A stretch of 64,000 bases of DNA from the human T2T-CHM13v2.0 reference genome, Homo sapiens: assembly GCF_009914755.1 (NCBI RefSeq), contig NC_060941.1; one strand, given 5' to 3'. This document shows, piece by piece, positions 30,301 through 63,200 of the stretch; the first letter of the stretch is position 1, and every line of letters begins with the position of its first letter. Made by a program: the position numbers and the translations under genes. The notes under the pieces were generated by a model. The model made no database searches. It had not been told where the DNA came from and saw nothing but the letters and a program-made list of their open reading frames with translations.

Positions 30301-33300
30301 AAAAAGAAAAAGAAAAAGGCCACCGGGCATGGTAGCTCATGCCTGTAATCCCAGCACTCTGGGAGACCAGGGCGGGTGGATCACCTGAGGTCGGGAGTTC
30401 AAGACCAGCCTGACCAATATGGAGAAATCCCGTCTCTACTAAAAATACAAAATTAGCCGGGCATGGTGGTGCATGCCTATAATCCCAGTTACTCGGGAGG
30501 CTGAGGGAGGAGAACTGCTTGAACCCGTGAGGCGGAGGTTGCGGTGAGTCGAGATCCACGCCATTGCACTCCCGCCTGGGCAACAAGAGCGGAATTCTGT
30601 CTCAAAAAAAAAAAAAAAGACAAAAAACAACTTCGGCTGGGTGCGGTGACTCATTCCTGTAATCCCAGCACTTTGGGAGGCCAAGGCGGGTGGATCACCC
30701 GAGGTCAGGAGTTCCAGACCAGCCTGGCCAACATGGTGAAACCCTGGCTCAACTAAAAATATAAAAATACAAAAAAGTTAGCTGGGCATAGTGGCGGGTA
30801 CCTGTAGTCCCAGCTACTCGGGAGGCTGAGGCGGGAGAATCGCTTGAACCCGGGAGGCGGAGGTTGCAGCGAGTCGAAATCATGCCACTGCACTCCAGCG
30901 TGGGCGACAGAGCAAGGCCCTGCCTCAAATAAAAAAAAAAAAAAAGCCTGGTTTGTTGACTCATACCTATAATCTCAATGCTCTGGAAGGCCGAGGCAGG
31001 CAGACAGACAGATTGAGGCCAGGAGTTTGAGACCAACCTGGGCAACATAGTGAGACCCTGTCTCTACCAAAAAAAAAAGAAAAAACCCAGAATTTGTTTT
31101 TACTGTCAGTGGACTGAGGAGGGGAGACTTAGTGGGAGAGTCTGAGGTCTTTTAATTCCATTGAGCTTTTTTGTGTCATTGGCACAGGTGCATTTCTTCA
31201 ATAGTTTCTTCTATGATAAACTCCGTACCAAGGGTTATGATGGGGTGAAAAGGTGGACCAAAAACGTGAGTTTTGAATTCACATCCACTTGTGTAATGCC
31301 TTGCCTCTAAAGAATGAGAGTCTTGTTTTCTCTGAGCCCTTTCCCTGACCGTGTTCATTCAGTCTTTCAAAGATTAAACGTCTCTTGTGTGTGTAGGCAC
31401 TAAGGATACAGTGTTAAATAAGGAAAACTTGCCCTTAAAGTTAAATTGCAGCTAGTGATAAGTGCTGTGGGCAGATCAACACAGAGTAACGTGAGGCTGG
31501 GCGCAGTGGCTCACGCCTGTAATCCCCAGCACTTTGGGAGGCCAACACGGGCGGATCACCTGAGGTCAGGAGTTCGAGACTAGCCTGGCCAACATTGAGA
31601 AACCCCATCTCTATTAAAAATACAAAAATTAGCCCTGTGTGATGGCAGGTGGCCTGTAAGCCCAGCTATTCCTGGAGGCGGAGGCAGGAGAATCCCATGA
31701 ACCTGGGAGGCAGAGGTTGCAGTGAGCCGAGACCCCGCCATTGCACTCCAGCCTGGGCAACAAGAGCAAAACTCCGTCTCAAAAAAAAAAAAAAATCACA
31801 GTAATGTCATAGCGTGGGAAGTGGGTACTTTAGATTGGGTGATCTAGGAAGGCCTCTCATAGCTGAGACGTGAATGATGAGCAGCCAGCCATGCGCAGAC
31901 CTGGGAATAGCAAGTACACAAGACCCATAGTGAAAAACCATGGCTGAGGAACAGAGGGCTTGTGGGGGTGACCTGTGTAGTTGGCGCAGAGTGAGCAAAG
32001 GGAGATGGATACAAAATTCGGTCAGAGAGTAGATCATGTAAGACATGTACGGTAGGCTGAGGAGGGGGGATTTTATTGCGTGTATACTGAGAAGCCATTG
32101 AGTTTTAAGCAGGCTGAGAAGTGCCTTCTGTTTTAAACTCCTGTTTCAATGACAGATTGAAAGGGGGGCAAGAATGGAAGCAGGAACAGAGCACAGTAGT
32201 CCAGGTGAGAAACTTGAACTGGAGTGCTAAAGGAAGAGAGAGAGAGTAGTTTTATGTAGGATAAATTTTACGAGTAAAACCAGTAGGACTGACAGGCTCT
32301 GTGATACTGAGAGATACATATTTGGTCTCCTGACCAGGCTCCTGGCATTCAACTTCTAAAATCCTTGGAATCTCCAGTGATGTGTGTTTTTGTGTGCTGA
32401 TGAGTTGATTCATGGCTAGCCCCTCTAGGTGGCTTCATGATTAGAGGGTTGGAACTTTCAGCCTCACCCCCACCAACTTCCTGGGAGGGGAATGGGGCCA
32501 AAGGTTAAGGCAATCACTGAGGATCAGTGATTTAATCAGTCATGCCTAGTAGTGAAGCCTCTAAAAACCGGAAAGGGGCCGGGTGCGGCGGCTCACGCCT
32601 GTACTCCCGGCACTTTGGGAGGCTGAGGCAGATGGATCGCAAGGTCAAGAGATTGAGACCAGCCTGGCCGACCTGGCGAAACCCTGTCTCTACTAAAAAT
32701 ATGAAAATTAGCTGGGCGTGGTGGCGTGCGCCTGTAGTCCCCGGGAGGCTGAGGCAGGAGAATCGCTTGAACCCGGGAGGCAGAGGTTGCAGTGAGCCGA
32801 GATTGTGCCACTGCACTCCACCCTGGGTGACAGAGTGAAACTCTGTCTCAAAAAAGAAAAAAAAACCCGAGAGGAGGAGTTTGGAGACATTCTAGATAGC
32901 TGAAGGCATGGAGGCTCCCACAGGATGGTCTCCAGGCCTCTTCCCGGTACCTTTCCCTGTGCATCTTTTCATCTGTACTCTTTGTACTACCCTTTGTTAA
33001 TAAACTGGTAAATGTGTTTCCATGAGTTCTGTGAGCTGCTCTAGCAAATTAATCAAATTCAAGGAGGGGGTCATGGGAACGCTGATCTAACCAGTTGGTG
33101 AGAAACACAGATAAAACAACCTGGGGCTTAGGACTGGCATCAGAATTGGGGGCAGCCTTGTGAGACTGAGCCCTAAACCTGTGACACATTATCTCCAGGT
33201 AGATAGTGTTGGAATTGAATTGGGGGATACCCAGCTGTGTCCACCGCAAAATTGCTTGCTTGGTTGTTGGTGGAGAGAAAGCCCCACAAACACTTCTTGG

Positions 33301-60245: not shown

Positions 60246-63200
60246 CTGAAAGGAAAAGTCACTGTAGGAATCATGGTGGTAGAATCTCACAGTCCCAGGC
60301 ACACGACCCTTTGCATAACTTAAATAAGGAAAACTGTGTGATATTAATAGAAAGCTAGAACCACTCTGGAGTCCGCGGACCACGAGGACCTGTGTGGAAA
60401 GGTCAGGAACTTTTTGTTTTTTCTTTGAGATGGCATCTCGCTCTGTCGCCCAGGCTGGAGTGCAGTGGCGCGATCTCAGCTCACTGCAACCTCCGCCTCT
60501 CGACTTCAAGTGATTCTCATGCCTCGGCCTCCTGAGTAGCTACGACTACAGGTGTCCACCACCATGCCTGGCTAATTTCTGTATTTTTAGTAGAGACAAG
60601 GTTTCACCATGTTGGCCAGGCTGGTCTCAAACTCCTGACCTCAGGTGATCCGCCCGCCTCAGCCTCCCAAAGTGCTGGGATTACCGGCATAAGCCACCAC
60701 GCCCGGCCAAGGTCAGGAACTTTTAATTCCACTCCTTCCAAATACCAGTGGTTTGTGGGGGAGGAAAGGTAAAGAGGGCAGAGTTTGGACTGGGACACAC
60801 CGAAGTTCTGGATTTGGCCCTAACAGTATCTGTCCCTAAGAGTATCTATCTGTGTGATCTTAAACAAAACATACTCTGCCTCTTGTGTCATCTGCTAAGT
60901 GATTATATCCAACTTATCTTATTCTCAAGACTAGCAAGAGGATTAGACAAGGCTGGTGTGAAAGTACTTCTCACAAGGTACATGCAAGTGTAAGGAACTC
61001 TTACCTTAATCAAACAAATATCAACTCATCCCCAAATAAAACTCAACAACTTAAGTAAAAAGTGAGGGGTAGGCTGTGCGCGGTGGCTCACGCCTGTAAT
61101 TCCAGCACTGTGGGAGGCTGAGGCAGGTGGATCACAAGGTCAGGAGATCAAGACCATCCTGCCAACATAGTGAAACCCCATCTCTATTAAAAATACAAAA
61201 ATTAGCTGGCCTTGGTGGGGTGTGCCTATAATCCCAGCTGCTTGGGAGGCTGAGGCAGGAGAATTGCTTGAACCAGGGAGTTGGAGGTTACAGTGAGCCG
61301 AGGTCATGCCACTGCACTCCAGCCTGGTGACAGAGCAAAACTCTGTCTCAAAAAAAAGTGAGGGGTTAAGAAAAACAGAAAACATGCCTCTAGAACACCA
61401 GGCTTTCACTTCATTTCTCAATCAGTCCTTAGAGGAACCCCTGGGTTCAGGGGCAGGAAGACAGGAAAGGTTTTAGAGGAGTGAATCCCATGTTGTAAGC
61501 ACCAAATAGAAACAATACCTGAAAGGAGACATTCCTAGATTGAAATACACTACTTCCCACTTCCAAGTTGGATAGGACTGAATTATACCAAGGATTTATA
61601 CCAGGCAAGAAGAGAAAGTTGGAAAAATAAACTAAGTTGAGTGTTCAAAATCACTACATTAGGAGGGGAGGGGAAGAGATCTACAATGACCTATAAGCGT
61701 CTTCTAGATAAGCTTGCAGAACAGCTGGGTTTTCTTTTTTTTTTTTCTTTTTTTTGAGATGGGGTCTGTCACCCAGGCTAGAGTGCAGTGGCATGATCTC
61801 TGCTCACTGCAACTTCTGCCTCCCTTTTTTTGTATTTTTAGTAGAGAAGGGGTTTCACCATGCTGGCCAGACTGGTCTCAAACTCCTAACCTCAGGCAAT
61901 CCACCTGCCTCGGCTTCCCAAAGTGCTGGGATTGCAGGCGTGAGCCGCTGCACCCGGCCCCTTTCCGGTTTTTAGAGGCTTCACTACTAGGCATGACTGA
62001 TTAAATCACTGATCCTCAGTGATTGCCTTAACCTTTGGCCCCATTCCCCTCCCAGGAAGTTGGTGGGGGTGAGGCTGAAAGTTCCAACCCTCTAATCATG
62101 AAGCCACCTAGAGGGGCTAGCCATGAATCAACTCATCAGCACACAAAAACACACATCACTGGAGATTCCAAGGATTTTAGAAGTTGAATGCCAGGAGCCT
62201 GGTCAGGAGACCAAATATGTATCTCTCAGTATCACAGAGCCTGTCAGTCCTACTGGTTTTACTCGTAAAATTTATCCTACATAAAACTACTCTCTCTCTC
62301 TTCCTTTAGCACTCCAGTTCAAGTTTCTCACCTGGACTACTGTGCTCTGTTCCTGCTTCCATTCTTGCCCCCCTTTCCATCTGTCATTGAAACAGGAGTT
62401 TAAAACAGAAGGCACTTTCGGCCGGGCACAGTGGCTCTCGCCTGTAATCCCAGCACTTTGGGAGGCCGAGGTGGGTGGATCACGAGGTCAGGAGATCAAG
62501 ACCATCCTGGCTAACACGGTGAAACCCCATCTCTACTAAAAAAAAATACAAAAAAATCAGCCGGGCGTGGTGGCAGGCGCCTGTAGTCCCAGCTTCTCGT
62601 GAGGCTGAGGCAGGAGAATGGCGTGAACTTGGGAGGTGGAGCTTGCAGTGAGCCGAGATCACGCCAATGCACTCCAGCCTGGGTGACAGAGCGAGACTCC
62701 GTCTCAAAAACAAAACAAAACAAAACAAAACAAAAAACCAGAAGGCACTGTTAACTCAATGGCTTCTCAGTATACGCACAATAAAATCCCCCCTCCTCAG
62801 CCTACCGTACATGTCTTACATGATCTACTCTCTGACCCAATTTTGTATCGGTCTCCCTTTGCTCACTCTGCGCTAACTACACAAGCTGCAGTGAGCTGAG
62901 ATCGCACTACTGCACTCCAGCCTGGACGACAGAATGAGACTCCGTCTCAAAAAATTAAAAAACAACAACAAAAATTAGGCCGGGTGCAATGGGTCATGTC
63001 TATAATCCCAGCACTTTGGGAGGCCAAGGCAAGTGGATCCCTTGAGGCCAGGGGTTCGCGACCAGCCTAGCCAACATGGTGAAACTCCGTCTCTACTAAA
63101 AATACTGAAATTAGGGCCAGGTATAGTGGCTCATGCCTGTAATCCCAGTACTTTGGGAGGCCAAGGCAGGTGGATCACCTGCGGTCGGGAGTTCAAAACC

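What the first reader, a model, noticed from the sequence alone, without database searches (positions are those of the whole stretch)
31974..62883. Inverted ~0.6 kb duplication between SENP3 intron 7 and FXR2 intron 7 with a gene-conversion signature
Seen: 32119-32586 is the reverse complement of 61950-62417, 468 bp with no indels and one mismatch (32158 vs 62378). The adjoining 131 bp (31974-32104 vs 62753-62883) has 6 mismatches plus an indel of about 12 bp at the boundary. In the FXR2 copy the two blocks are separated by an AluY with TSD CAGAAGGCACT. The shared sequence spans an L2 / MER21-like LTR / Alu junction, so two independent TE insertions cannot explain it. The L2 and LTR continue beyond the match only in SENP3, so SENP3 is the likely donor. 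Inference: an older duplication (about 95%), then AluY insertion, then recent homogenisation of the uninterrupted block by gene conversion or inversion toggling between copies about 29 kb apart. At under 1 kb it falls below usual segmental-duplication cut-offs and is hidden by repeat masking.
Basis: partly seen in the sequence, partly recalled or inferred. Interest (0 to 1): 0.8.

Follow-up and report, generated by a model that had tools for sequence, protein, structure and literature searches.

The report
Old LTR piece copied, then homogenised
About 0.6 kb of a SENP3 intron, including the start of an ancient retroviral LTR, was copied backwards into an FXR2 intron 29 kb away, and most of that copy is now almost identical to its source again, most likely through gene conversion, which is a known process seen here in a small, clear example.

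Summary
Window 32119-32586 equals the reverse complement of 61950-62417: 468 bp, one mismatch (32158/62378), no indel. The adjoining 129-131 bp differ at 6 sites, plus a 12-nt length difference.

The virus remnant is real. It is a solo LTR at 32300-33679 in SENP3 intron 7, with TG...CA ends, interrupted by two Alus. It belongs to a dispersed family of thousands of copies. It is homologous to the copy that print names MER21C at GPR1-AS. Divergence between copies (K2P 0.27-0.29) gives about 60-120 Myr.

Only the first 277 bp of the LTR lie in the FXR2 copy, so SENP3 is the source.

Identity falls in three steps: 95%, then 99.8%, then about 82-85%. The steps sit at a younger Alu insertion with a perfect 11-bp TSD and at the 5' end of an Alu whose body is not shared.

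Best reading: an old repair-type duplication primed from Alu homology, then an Alu insertion, then interlocus gene conversion limited to the longest uninterrupted homology. Conversion was not tested against other genomes. Inversion toggling is unlikely. This is a new member of a known kind, of modest interest.

The parts
32300..33679 (+). Solo LTR of the MER21 group in SENP3 intron 7, first base (TG) to last (CA), including two nested Alus
   Evidence: No match starts more than 6 nt upstream of 32300. With the query starting at 32300, 34 of 48 loci that have a piece-A hit start at exactly that base. 11 of 11 full copies start TGT at the aligned base. Family similarity ends at the CA at 33678-33679. 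No partner LTR lies in the window.
32300..32576 (+). LTR piece A (277 bp), the only part of the LTR that was copied to FXR2
   Evidence: 37 copies with at least 200 aligned nt, median identity 0.76.
32577..32860 (+). Old Alu nested in the LTR; its target-site duplication is 32563-32576 / 32861-32874 (12 of 14 bases alike)
   Evidence: sequence; SRP/Alu-type Rfam hits; best identity to any other Alu in the window is 85.6%.
32861..33365 (+). LTR piece B, present only in SENP3
   Evidence: 2220 first-look candidates, 40 scored, and none at the FXR2 site; 51 copies, median identity 0.78.
33366..33657 (+). Second nested Alu, with target-site duplication 33351-33364 / 33658-33671
33658..33679 (+). 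Last bases of the LTR after the second Alu, ending in CA
   Evidence: the tails of other copies end in the same T-rich ...CA stretch.
31974..32104 (+). Block 1, SENP3 copy (95% block), not LTR
   Evidence: The only other genomic copy is in FXR2.
32105..32118 (+). Stretch present in SENP3 only, at the junction of the two blocks (net 12-nt length difference)
32119..32586 (+). Block 2, SENP3 copy (99.8% block): 181 bp non-LTR, 277 bp LTR and the first 10 bp of the Alu
61950..62417 (-). Block 2, FXR2 intron 7 copy
61960..62236 (-). LTR fragment (first 277 bp of the LTR) carried into FXR2 intron 7
   Evidence: the non-LTR part of block 2 maps to 62237-62417.
61738..61959 (-). Resident Alu of the FXR2 site, with an internal deletion of about 66 bp relative to the SENP3 Alu. 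Its body is not a copy of the SENP3 Alu. The identity break lies at its 5' end.
   Evidence: left arm 21 mismatches in 127; 6 CpG transitions vs 24 other mismatches.
62420..62738 (+).
   Evidence: Perfect 11-bp TSD. Best identity to another Alu in the window is 89.9%, against 85.6% for the SENP3 Alu. The subfamily name was not tested.
62406..62416 (.). TSD copy inside block 2
62739..62749 (.). TSD copy next to block 1
62753..62883 (-). Block 1, FXR2 copy
62884..62977 (+). 5'-truncated Alu piece with A-rich tail that abuts the outer end of the FXR2 copy
   Evidence: sequence; masked 62880-63245.

Best explanation
Shown: a retroviral solo LTR of the MER21 group entered what is now SENP3 intron 7 well before the primate radiation and later took up two Alus. 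Shown: a 613-bp stretch (31974-32586) lies once more in the genome, reversed, in FXR2 intron 7. That stretch is unique intron sequence plus the first 277 bp of the LTR, up to the first bases of the nested Alu. There it is cut short at both ends, so SENP3 is the source.

Inferred origin: a break in FXR2 intron 7, between two oppositely oriented Alus, was repaired by synthesis-dependent strand annealing. The end lying in the resident Alu invaded the SENP3 Alu and copied about 0.6 kb upstream of it. It was then joined without homology to the other end, inside a now truncated Alu.

Shown: a younger Alu then inserted into the copy, with a perfect 11-bp TSD. Inferred: non-reciprocal exchange (interlocus gene conversion, direction unknown) afterwards made the 468-bp block alike again. 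That block is the longest stretch of homology left, bounded by the Alu insertion on one side and the unrelated Alu body on the other. The 131-bp block, too short for efficient exchange, went on diverging.
For: Identity profile: 95% (6/131), then 99.8% (1/468), then 85% (8/54) and 82% over the Alu left arm. Fisher p=5.7e-4 and 6.7e-8 for the two steps.

Both steps coincide with ends of homology. One lies within a few bases of the Alu insertion, whose TSD copy at 62406-62416 sits inside the identical block. The other lies 10 bases into an Alu whose body ranks only 11th and 26th among its partner's matches in the window.

The block length of 468 bp exceeds the human minimal efficient processing segment quoted in print (337-456 bp). 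131 bp does not, and 82% is below the quoted ~92% homology floor (PMC3966225, passages).

Constraint is unlikely: the duplicated LTR piece is as diverged from its family (median identity 0.76) as the non-duplicated piece (0.78). No RefSeq functional element and no Rfam family other than Alu-type hits lie on it.

Source and direction of the first copy: LTR piece B and the sequence upstream of 31974 occur only in SENP3.

Origin by repair: the insert has exactly one other copy in the genome, no significant TSD, and one junction in repeat homology while the other shows none. This fits the class described in PMC2671141 (abstract, sections 6 and 7).

LTR identity and age; print.
Against: There is no outgroup and only one haplotype, so the defining test of conversion was not run. 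That test asks whether paralogs group within a species for the block. At 95% identity the block would have had few long perfect stretches before conversion, so a single late event is not obviously efficient. The direction of conversion is unknown.

For the origin there is no empty site to define the junctions. The right arm of the FXR2 Alu has the SENP3 Alu as its best match in the window (90% vs 88% for the next), and both A-tails are followed by the same 3 bases. The whole Alu may therefore have been co-copied and its left arm changed later. At 29 kb, the donor-acceptor distance falls in the 'distant' class, which PMC2671141 did not treat as confident repair events.
Confidence: 0.72

Rival explanations
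1. Continuous concerted evolution. The two copies exchanged sequence repeatedly from the time of duplication. The Alu insertion cut the 131-bp block off, and only then did it start to diverge. Its 4.6% divergence would then date the Alu insertion, not the duplication, which could be older.
For: This removes the difficulty that a block already 5% diverged lacks long perfect stretches (MEPS). The step in identity sits at the Alu insertion. 4.6% gives 19-46 Myr, a range that by my recall overlaps the period of AluY activity.
Against: No direct evidence separates one late event from many. It is a variant of the best explanation, not an alternative to conversion.
Confidence: 0.3
2. The FXR2 copy began as an L1-mediated retrocopy of a piece of SENP3 pre-mRNA, primed on the A-tail of the nested Alu and 5'-truncated at 31974. 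The left arm of one Alu was later overwritten by another Alu.
For: The copy is in the sense of SENP3 transcription and is followed by an Alu with an A-tail. The Alu right arm is 90% alike, with the partner as its best hit in the window. The same 3 bases follow both tails. In print, distant duplicates often carry poly(A) and TSDs.
Against: The best flank-to-flank match is reached by 710 of 5000 random 30-mers, so there is no TSD. The Alu left arm has 21 mismatches in 127, mostly not CpG transitions, significantly more than block 1 (p=0.002).
Confidence: 0.1
3. Homogenisation by repeated inversion of the 29-kb interval (crossover between the arms, 'toggling') rather than by non-crossover conversion.
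For: The arms are inverted, 468 bp long and 99.8% alike, which is enough for non-allelic homologous recombination by the figures quoted.
Against: A crossover in the arms separates SENP3 exons 1-7 from 8-11 and FXR2 exons 1-7 from 8-17. In this assembly both genes are intact. An inversion by itself does not make the arms alike. No paper links the two genes to an inversion: no paper held all of SENP3, FXR2 and 'inverted'; the one listed paper naming both genes is a copy-number survey; (SENP3+FXR2+fusion) listed six papers, seen as listings only.
Confidence: 0.04
4. The near-identity is an assembly or polishing artefact of this reference.
For: Only one assembly could be read here.
Against: The block is 468 bp inside unique flanks and far shorter than the reads used for such assemblies (recalled, not tested). 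The identity steps coincide with biological landmarks, a TSD and an Alu start, rather than arbitrary positions.
Confidence: 0.03
5. Both copies of the 468-bp block are held constant by purifying selection.
For: None found.
Against: The LTR part of the block has drifted from its family as much as the unduplicated part (0.76 vs 0.78). It carries no annotated functional element and no RNA family. Selection would not stop at an Alu insertion site.
Confidence: 0.02

Closest known systems
MER21 group of LTRs (MER21C / MER21B). Print files MER21C as ERVL in a RepeatMasker-based table (PMC3836709, one passage) and as ERV1/HEPSI in Repbase's Table 4 (PMC5753468, passages).
   Same: It is homologous to the copy named MER21C at the first exon of GPR1-AS: window pieces match with E 5e-8 and 6.5e-10, colinear, and 8 of 8 family copies hit the same stretch. 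It has TG...CA ends, thousands of copies and old age. Observed identity to that copy (63-69%) fits the product of about 86% (half of K2P 0.27-0.29) and the 71-72% that print gives for that copy against its consensus.
   Different: The subfamily is not resolved. The window copy is about 790 bp without its Alus, and other copies are about 840-885 bp, against the 938-bp MER21C consensus length in print. Print disagrees on the class. I found 5-bp TSDs.
Interlocus (ectopic) gene conversion between paralogous sequences, as described for human segmental duplications (PMC3966225 passages; PMC3790853 and PMC10172114 seen as listings only).
   Same: A tract of near-identity lies inside older, more diverged paralogy. 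The arms are on the same chromosome and close together (29 kb). The tract is limited by homology.
   Different: The paralogy is only 0.6 kb, below the size at which duplications are usually catalogued (>=1 kb, recalled). It lies in introns of two unrelated genes and is made partly of an LTR.
Repair-mediated duplications by capture of chromosomal DNA (Pace, Sen, Batzer, Feschotte 2009; PMC2671141).
   Same: A short insert (613 bp; their distant class has mean 302 and maximum 3424 bp) with exactly one other copy in the genome. It sits on the same chromosome, lands among transposable elements and has no TSD.
   Different: The donor is 29 kb away, while their confident class is under 5 kb. One junction lies in Alu homology rather than microhomology. 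I could not see their Table S1 (supplements are closed), so I cannot say whether this case is listed there.

Membership tests
MER21 group LTR | Sequence homology to a copy or model bearing the name | tested here: met
   Print places a MER21C (345 bp) on the first exon of GPR1-AS (= CMKLR2-AS). I fetched that site (L061). Window LTR piece A positions 177-273 and piece B positions 47-236 hit L061 1551-1649 and 1693-1900 in order. 8 of 8 other family copies hit L061 1535-1881.
MER21 group LTR | LTR termini TG...CA and a shared family boundary | tested here: met
   TG at 32300-32301 and CA at 33678-33679. 11 of 11 copies start TGT. With the query starting at 32300, 34 of 48 loci with a piece-A hit start at that base. 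No match reaches more than 6 nt upstream.
MER21 group LTR | Subfamily (A, B or C) by match to the curated consensus or model | not testable with these tools
   No Dfam or Repbase library is on hand, and building a consensus is barred. Print gives 88% similarity between the B and C consensus sequences.
MER21 group LTR | Retroviral class from the inner region | not tested
   This would need inner genes of full-length kin, which is reserved by the operators. As indirect evidence, the exact 5-bp flank word recurs at the 3' end in 5 of 10 copies against 6 of 80 control words, p=0.0019. Print gives 4 bp for ERV1 and 5 bp for MaLR.
Solo LTR | No partner LTR and no inner sequence next to it | tested here: met
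   The only other local match is the copied fragment in FXR2. Sequence after 33679 matches none of the flanks of 56 family loci.
Interlocus gene conversion | A tract much more alike than the flanking paralogous sequence | tested here: met
   1/468 vs 6/131 (p=5.7e-4) and vs 8/54 (p=6.7e-8).
Interlocus gene conversion | Paralogs group within a species for the tract and by locus for the flanks | not testable with these tools
   No other primate or human assembly is on hand.
Interlocus gene conversion | Enough uninterrupted homology (MEPS) and overall similarity | tested here: met
   468 bp against the quoted 337-456 bp for humans. Flanks are 131 bp long or 82% alike.
Repair-mediated duplication (SDSA capture) | The insert has a single parental copy elsewhere in the genome | tested here: met
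   only the SENP3 and FXR2 copies for 31974-32299.
Repair-mediated duplication (SDSA capture) | Junction hallmarks (microhomology, filler, deletion) and no poly(A)/TSD | tested here: inconclusive
   No significant TSD. However, the copy abuts an Alu with an A-tail, and no empty site was available to define filler or deletion.
Repair-mediated duplication (SDSA capture) | Donor within 5 kb (the authors' confident class) | tested here: not met
   The arms are 29,255 nt apart. The case falls in their 'distant' class, of which 58 are intrachromosomal.
Segmental duplication | At least 1 kb at 90% identity or more (definition recalled) | tested here: not met
   The shared sequence is 613 bp in SENP3.
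   Only relative youth is shown: best identity in the window is 89.9% against 85.6% for the SENP3 Alu, and the 11-bp TSD is perfect.

The most novel reading that the evidence does not exclude
The conversion tract may be the non-crossover footprint of exchange that still goes on. The two arms are now 468 bp of 99.8% identity, just above the published human minimum for efficient homologous exchange. They lie inverted in phase-0 introns of two genes on opposite strands. A crossover between them, rare in the germline or arising in somatic cells, would invert 29 kb holding EIF4A1, CD68, MPDU1 and SOX15. It would also create two reciprocal chimeric genes that are both in frame: SENP3 exons 1-7 joined to FXR2 exons 8-17, and FXR2 exons 1-7 joined to SENP3 exons 8-11.
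Probability: 0.06. Interest if true: 0.6.

Novelty: new member of a known kind. Interest (0 to 1): 0.3.

Why it matters
The case shows that concerted evolution can act on paralogy of about half a kilobase, which standard duplication catalogues leave out. It also shows that an inserted Alu can set the edge of a conversion tract. For dating, the identity of such small paralogs says little about their age: three adjoining pieces of one duplicate would give about 1, 20-45 and much more than 45 Myr. For annotation, a fragment of an ancient LTR in FXR2 intron 7 is not an integration site. It travelled there as host DNA, so counts and ages of old LTR copies can be inflated by such secondary copies. 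The arms lie in same-phase introns of two genes, which gives a concrete prediction that can be checked in long-read and RNA data.

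Tried and rejected
Alu co-duplication. The ranks (11th and 26th) and the spectrum of mismatches (6 CpG transitions, 24 other) speak against this for the left arm. The right arm remains ambiguous.

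Retrocopy origin. The best candidate TSD is not better than chance.

L2 label. A search with 31807-32299 alone found only the FXR2 copy, plus two weak hits for 31817-31905, outside the duplicate. This is neither confirmed nor refuted.

Reciprocal test of the family name. A genome search with the GPR1-AS stretch gave 2441 first-look candidates, but its 40 scored hits (many of them subtelomeric) did not overlap my 56 family loci. This is uninformative, because only 40 of thousands are scored.

A possible provirus pair on C6 (L053 and L057, 4.4 kb apart). Their LTR-like stretches are 75% alike with K2P 0.275, the same as unrelated copies, so this gives no independent date. I did not look at what lies between them.

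Rfam scan of 31800-33700. It gave only Alu/SRP-type hits and Alu-derived miRNA-family hits below threshold.

Print. In one search (SENP3+FXR2+inverted) no paper held all three terms. In one search (3 of 5 among SENP3, FXR2, gene conversion, segmental duplication, inversion) the one listed paper naming both genes is a copy-number survey. In one search (SENP3+FXR2+fusion) six papers were listed, seen as listings only, and none has these terms in its title or abstract. One search (TSD lengths by class, six terms) found nothing. led to PMC2836564. Supplements are closed, so Table S1 of PMC2671141 and published inversion lists, which may hold this locus, were not seen. PMC11007075 and PMC11359688 were read for passages and added nothing used here.

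Rates used for dating are recalled, not taken from a call: 0.5e-9 to 1.2e-9 per site per year for the human lineage, and 2.2e-9 for older mammalian repeats.

Full report
OBSERVATION. The inverted match is real and sits at the stated coordinates. The repeat finder lists arms 32119-32640 / 61896-62417 (522 nt, 98%) and 31974-32104 / 62753-62883 (131 nt, 95%). My alignment shows 32119-32586 against 62417-61950 with one mismatch (32158 T, 62378 G) and no indel. It shows 31974-32102 against 62883-62755 with six mismatches. Between the blocks SENP3 carries 15 nt where the FXR2 copy has 3. In FXR2 the blocks are separated by an Alu (62420-62738) with a perfect 11-bp direct repeat at 62406-62416 and 62739-62749. 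RefSeq exon lists place both copies in intron 7 of their genes. The next best inverted pair in 31000-63500 is an Alu pair at 92% over 128 nt.

IDENTITY PROFILE. The unevenness of identity is significant. 6/131 against 1/468 gives Fisher p=5.7e-4. At 4.6% divergence, the chance of at most one mismatch in 468 bp is 1.1e-8, and at the lower confidence limit of 1.7% it is 3e-3. Without the two CpG transitions of block 1 (classified by eye), 4/131 against 1/468 gives p=0.009.

THE VIRUS REMNANT: IS IT REAL? A genome search with 31807-32572 found the FXR2 copy and, for window 32299-32569 only, 39 dispersed matches at 67-80% identity (711 first-look candidates, 40 scored). None reached more than 6 nt upstream of 32300. 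The stretch after the nested Alu (32866-33360) found 39 further matches at 71-78% (2220 candidates, 40 scored), and none of them lay at the FXR2 site. With the query starting at 32300, 34 of 48 loci that had a hit for the first piece start at that base. 11 of 11 full copies begin TGT there. The family similarity runs on to a T-rich stretch ending in CA. In the window this lies just after a second Alu, at 33679. Sequence beyond 33679 matches none of the family loci's flanks.

The element is therefore a solo LTR at 32300-33679, with TG...CA ends, broken by two Alus:
- Alu 1 at 32577-32860, with a 14-bp target repeat alike at 12 of 14 positions.
- Alu 2 at 33366-33657.
RefSeq's soft-mask covers the Alus but not the LTR. 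That mask therefore says nothing about old repeats.

FAMILY. No repeat library is on hand, so I used print. [quoted passage not shown] It gives a 938-bp MER21C consensus and 88% similarity between the MER21B and MER21C consensus sequences. It reports 5418 MER21C and 2894 MER21B copies in human. Citing Dfam, it says MER21C is Boreoeutherian and MER21B is Euarchontoglires-specific.

RefSeq names the gene CMKLR2-AS, and I fetched its start (L061). The two window pieces match L061 1551-1649 and 1693-1900 in order (69% and 63% identity; E 5e-8 and 6.5e-10). These positions lie directly after the gene start at L061 position 1501. 8 of 8 other family copies match the same stretch (E 1e-16 to 1e-28 for the LTR part). 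The low identity is what two old copies of one family should show. The window copy is about 86% from its ancestor (half of K2P 0.27-0.29), and print gives 71-72% for the GPR1-AS copy. The product of these is 0.61-0.62, against 0.63-0.69 observed. The subfamily cannot be told here.

CLASS. Print disagrees on the class. A RepeatMasker-based table lists MER21C as ERVL with 5,501 copies (PMC3836709, one passage). Repbase's Table 4 files MER21I with MER21/A/B/C under ERV1, group HEPSI (PMC5753468, passages). A 2007 paper calls MER21C class I (PMC1781489, passages).

From the LTRs alone I tested the target-site duplication. In 5 of 10 full copies the exact 5-mer that precedes the LTR recurs where the LTR ends, against 6 of 80 control 5-mers (p=0.0019). 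The 6-mer recurs in 1 of 10 (one of the 11 copies had no anchor and was left out). By eye, four are perfect 5-bp repeats directly after the terminal CA or ...AGA, and a fifth matches 4 of 5. Print gives 4 bp for ERV1 and 5 bp for MaLR (PMC2836564, passages). The window copy's own flanks match at 3 of 5, which is uninformative. Settling the class needs inner genes, which I left alone.

AGE OF THE LTR. Between the window copy and the retrieved copies, gap-free identity has median 0.76 (piece A, 37 copies) and 0.78 (piece B, 51 copies), with K2P medians of 0.29 and 0.27. Halved, and using recalled rates of 2.2e-9 and 1.2e-9 per site per year, this gives 61-66 and 111-122 Myr. The copies are the best-scoring few of thousands, so the estimate leans young. 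It agrees with print's Boreoeutherian or Euarchontoglires range. Two Alus, themselves only 80-89% like other Alus of the window, are nested in the LTR, so it is older than they are.

WHICH COPY IS THE SOURCE? The FXR2 site holds only the first 277 bp of the LTR (61960-62236, minus strand), plus 181 + 131 bp of the intron sequence that precedes the LTR in SENP3. The rest of the LTR and the sequence upstream of 31974 occur only in SENP3. The LTR fragment in FXR2 is therefore not an integration. It arrived as part of a piece of host DNA.

THE ENDS OF THE COPY. After the block, both loci run into an Alu at the same base, but only its first 10 bases are shared. Beyond 32586, identity drops to 46/54. 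The left arms differ at 21 of 127 positions, and each ranks only 11th or 26th among the other's matches in the window. Of the 30 mismatches in the Alu body, 6 are CpG transitions and 24 are not, so CpG decay does not explain them. The left arm is significantly more diverged than block 1 (p=0.002). The right arm (6/60) is not (p=0.2), and there the partner is narrowly the best hit (90% against 88%). At the other end, the copy abuts a 5'-truncated Alu piece (62884-62977). The two flanks share no repeat better than chance: 710 of 5000 random 30-mers reach the same score.

HOW IT MOST LIKELY AROSE. The following steps are inferred. A break occurred between two oppositely oriented Alus in FXR2 intron 7. 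The end lying in the resident Alu paired with the SENP3 Alu, which has the matching orientation once one strand is flipped. The end was extended into the 0.6 kb upstream of that Alu, and was then joined without homology to the other end.

This is the mechanism proposed for repair-mediated duplications (PMC2671141; abstract and sections 6 and 7 read in full). That paper reports 1,136 inserts with a single parental copy. Of these, 824 lie within 5 kb of the donor, and 58 are intrachromosomal but further away. The hallmarks are microhomology, filler or deletion. The present case falls in their distant class, which the authors did not treat as confident, and many members of that class proved to be retrocopies. 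The retrocopy rival keeps about 0.1. The copy is in the sense of SENP3 transcription and ends at an Alu with an A-tail, but there is no TSD and the Alu left arm does not match.

WHY THE MIDDLE BLOCK IS NEARLY IDENTICAL. The inserted Alu has a perfect TSD, with one copy inside the 99.8% block and the other next to the 95% block. It therefore entered a copy in which the blocks were contiguous. Both edges of the near-identical block coincide with ends of homology: one within a few bases of that Alu, the other 10 bases into the unrelated Alu. A review quotes a minimal efficient processing segment of more than 200 bp in mouse and 337-456 bp in humans, and a homology floor of about 92% (PMC3966225, passages). 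The block has 468 bp, while its neighbours have 131 bp or 82% identity.

Constraint does not explain the identity. The duplicated LTR piece has drifted from its family as much as the unduplicated piece. No RefSeq functional element and no RNA family other than Alu-type hits lie on it. Two separate duplications would have had to rebuild a TSD by accident.

Interlocus gene conversion after the Alu insertion is therefore the best reading. One mismatch in 468 bp gives 0.9-2.1 Myr since the last exchange, with an upper limit of 5-12 Myr. Block 1 gives 19-46 Myr, with limits of 7-100 Myr. A variant I cannot exclude is repeated exchange ever since the duplication. In that case block 1 dates the Alu insertion rather than the duplication. 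The direction of conversion cannot be told, because the arms are identical wherever family copies could serve as outgroup.

INVERSION. A crossover between the arms would separate SENP3 exons 1-7 from exons 8-11, and FXR2 exons 1-7 from exons 8-17. Both introns are phase 0: cumulative coding length is 1341 for SENP3 and 660 for FXR2. Both reciprocal chimeras would therefore be in frame. A fixed or toggling inversion of this kind is unlikely. A rare or somatic one is the most novel reading left open. In one search no paper held all of SENP3, FXR2 and 'inverted'. In one search the one listed paper naming both genes is a copy-number survey. In one search the six papers holding SENP3, FXR2 and 'fusion' were seen only as listings, with none of the terms in title or abstract.

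LIMITS. Only one haplotype of one species was available. No primate or second human assembly, no repeat library and no supplements were on hand. The defining test of conversion, the subfamily names of the LTR and Alus, and the L2 label remain open. Substitution rates and the 1-kb cut-off for segmental duplications are recalled.

VERDICT. The remnant is a real solo LTR of the MER21 group, roughly 60-120 Myr old. The FXR2 piece is a secondary host-DNA copy of it. The conversion reading is well supported by internal evidence but not proven. It is a new member of known kinds, and its interest is modest.

Noticed in passing
Family loci L035, L043, L044, L056, L059, L052: Copies of this LTR family carry 5-bp target-site duplications: the exact flank word recurs in 5 of 10 copies against 6 of 80 control words. 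Print gives 4 bp for ERV1 and 5 bp for MaLR. Two sources file MER21 under ERV1 or class I, and a RepeatMasker-based table files it under ERVL.
   Followed up: partly
window 31265/34617 and 60245/65660 (intron 7 of SENP3 and of FXR2): Both introns that hold the arms are phase 0, so a crossover between the arms would give two in-frame reciprocal chimeric genes.
   Followed up: partly
G000 C19:169818, C11:174411, C7:86993, C1:180029, C16:96237194, C9:150527002, C5:181866682, C3:200932614: The stretch named MER21C at GPR1-AS has a set of equally scoring matches (74%, query positions 73-272) within about 0.2 Mb of many chromosome ends. An LTR fragment of this group appears to have been carried along in the subtelomeric duplications.
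   Followed up: no
L010/L011 (C9:109078518 and C9:106520238) and L004/L023 (C2:88022299 and C2:88218261): These pairs of LTR copies lie in opposite orientation, and the C9 pair has identical match statistics. They are probably further secondary copies inside larger duplications, the same effect as in FXR2 on a larger scale.
   Followed up: no
window 31807-32572: RefSeq's soft-mask (stretches of 100 nt or more) leaves the whole LTR piece A unmasked although the family has thousands of copies. The mask mainly marks Alus here.
   Followed up: yes
window 32709-32829 and 33364-33625: Sub-threshold Rfam hits to mir-1268 and mir-3135 lie inside the two Alus. They reflect the Alu origin of those miRNA families, not genes at this site.
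   Followed up: no
window 32577-32860: The SENP3 Alu keeps 14 CpGs in 269 nt, as many as the younger Alu at 62420-62715 (14 in 296). Yet it is the more diverged from the other Alus of the window. Several of its CpGs look newly made.
   Followed up: no
window 31817-31905: Two weak matches elsewhere in the genome (76-81% over 58-89 nt, C11) point to an old repeat just upstream of the duplicated stretch.
   Followed up: no
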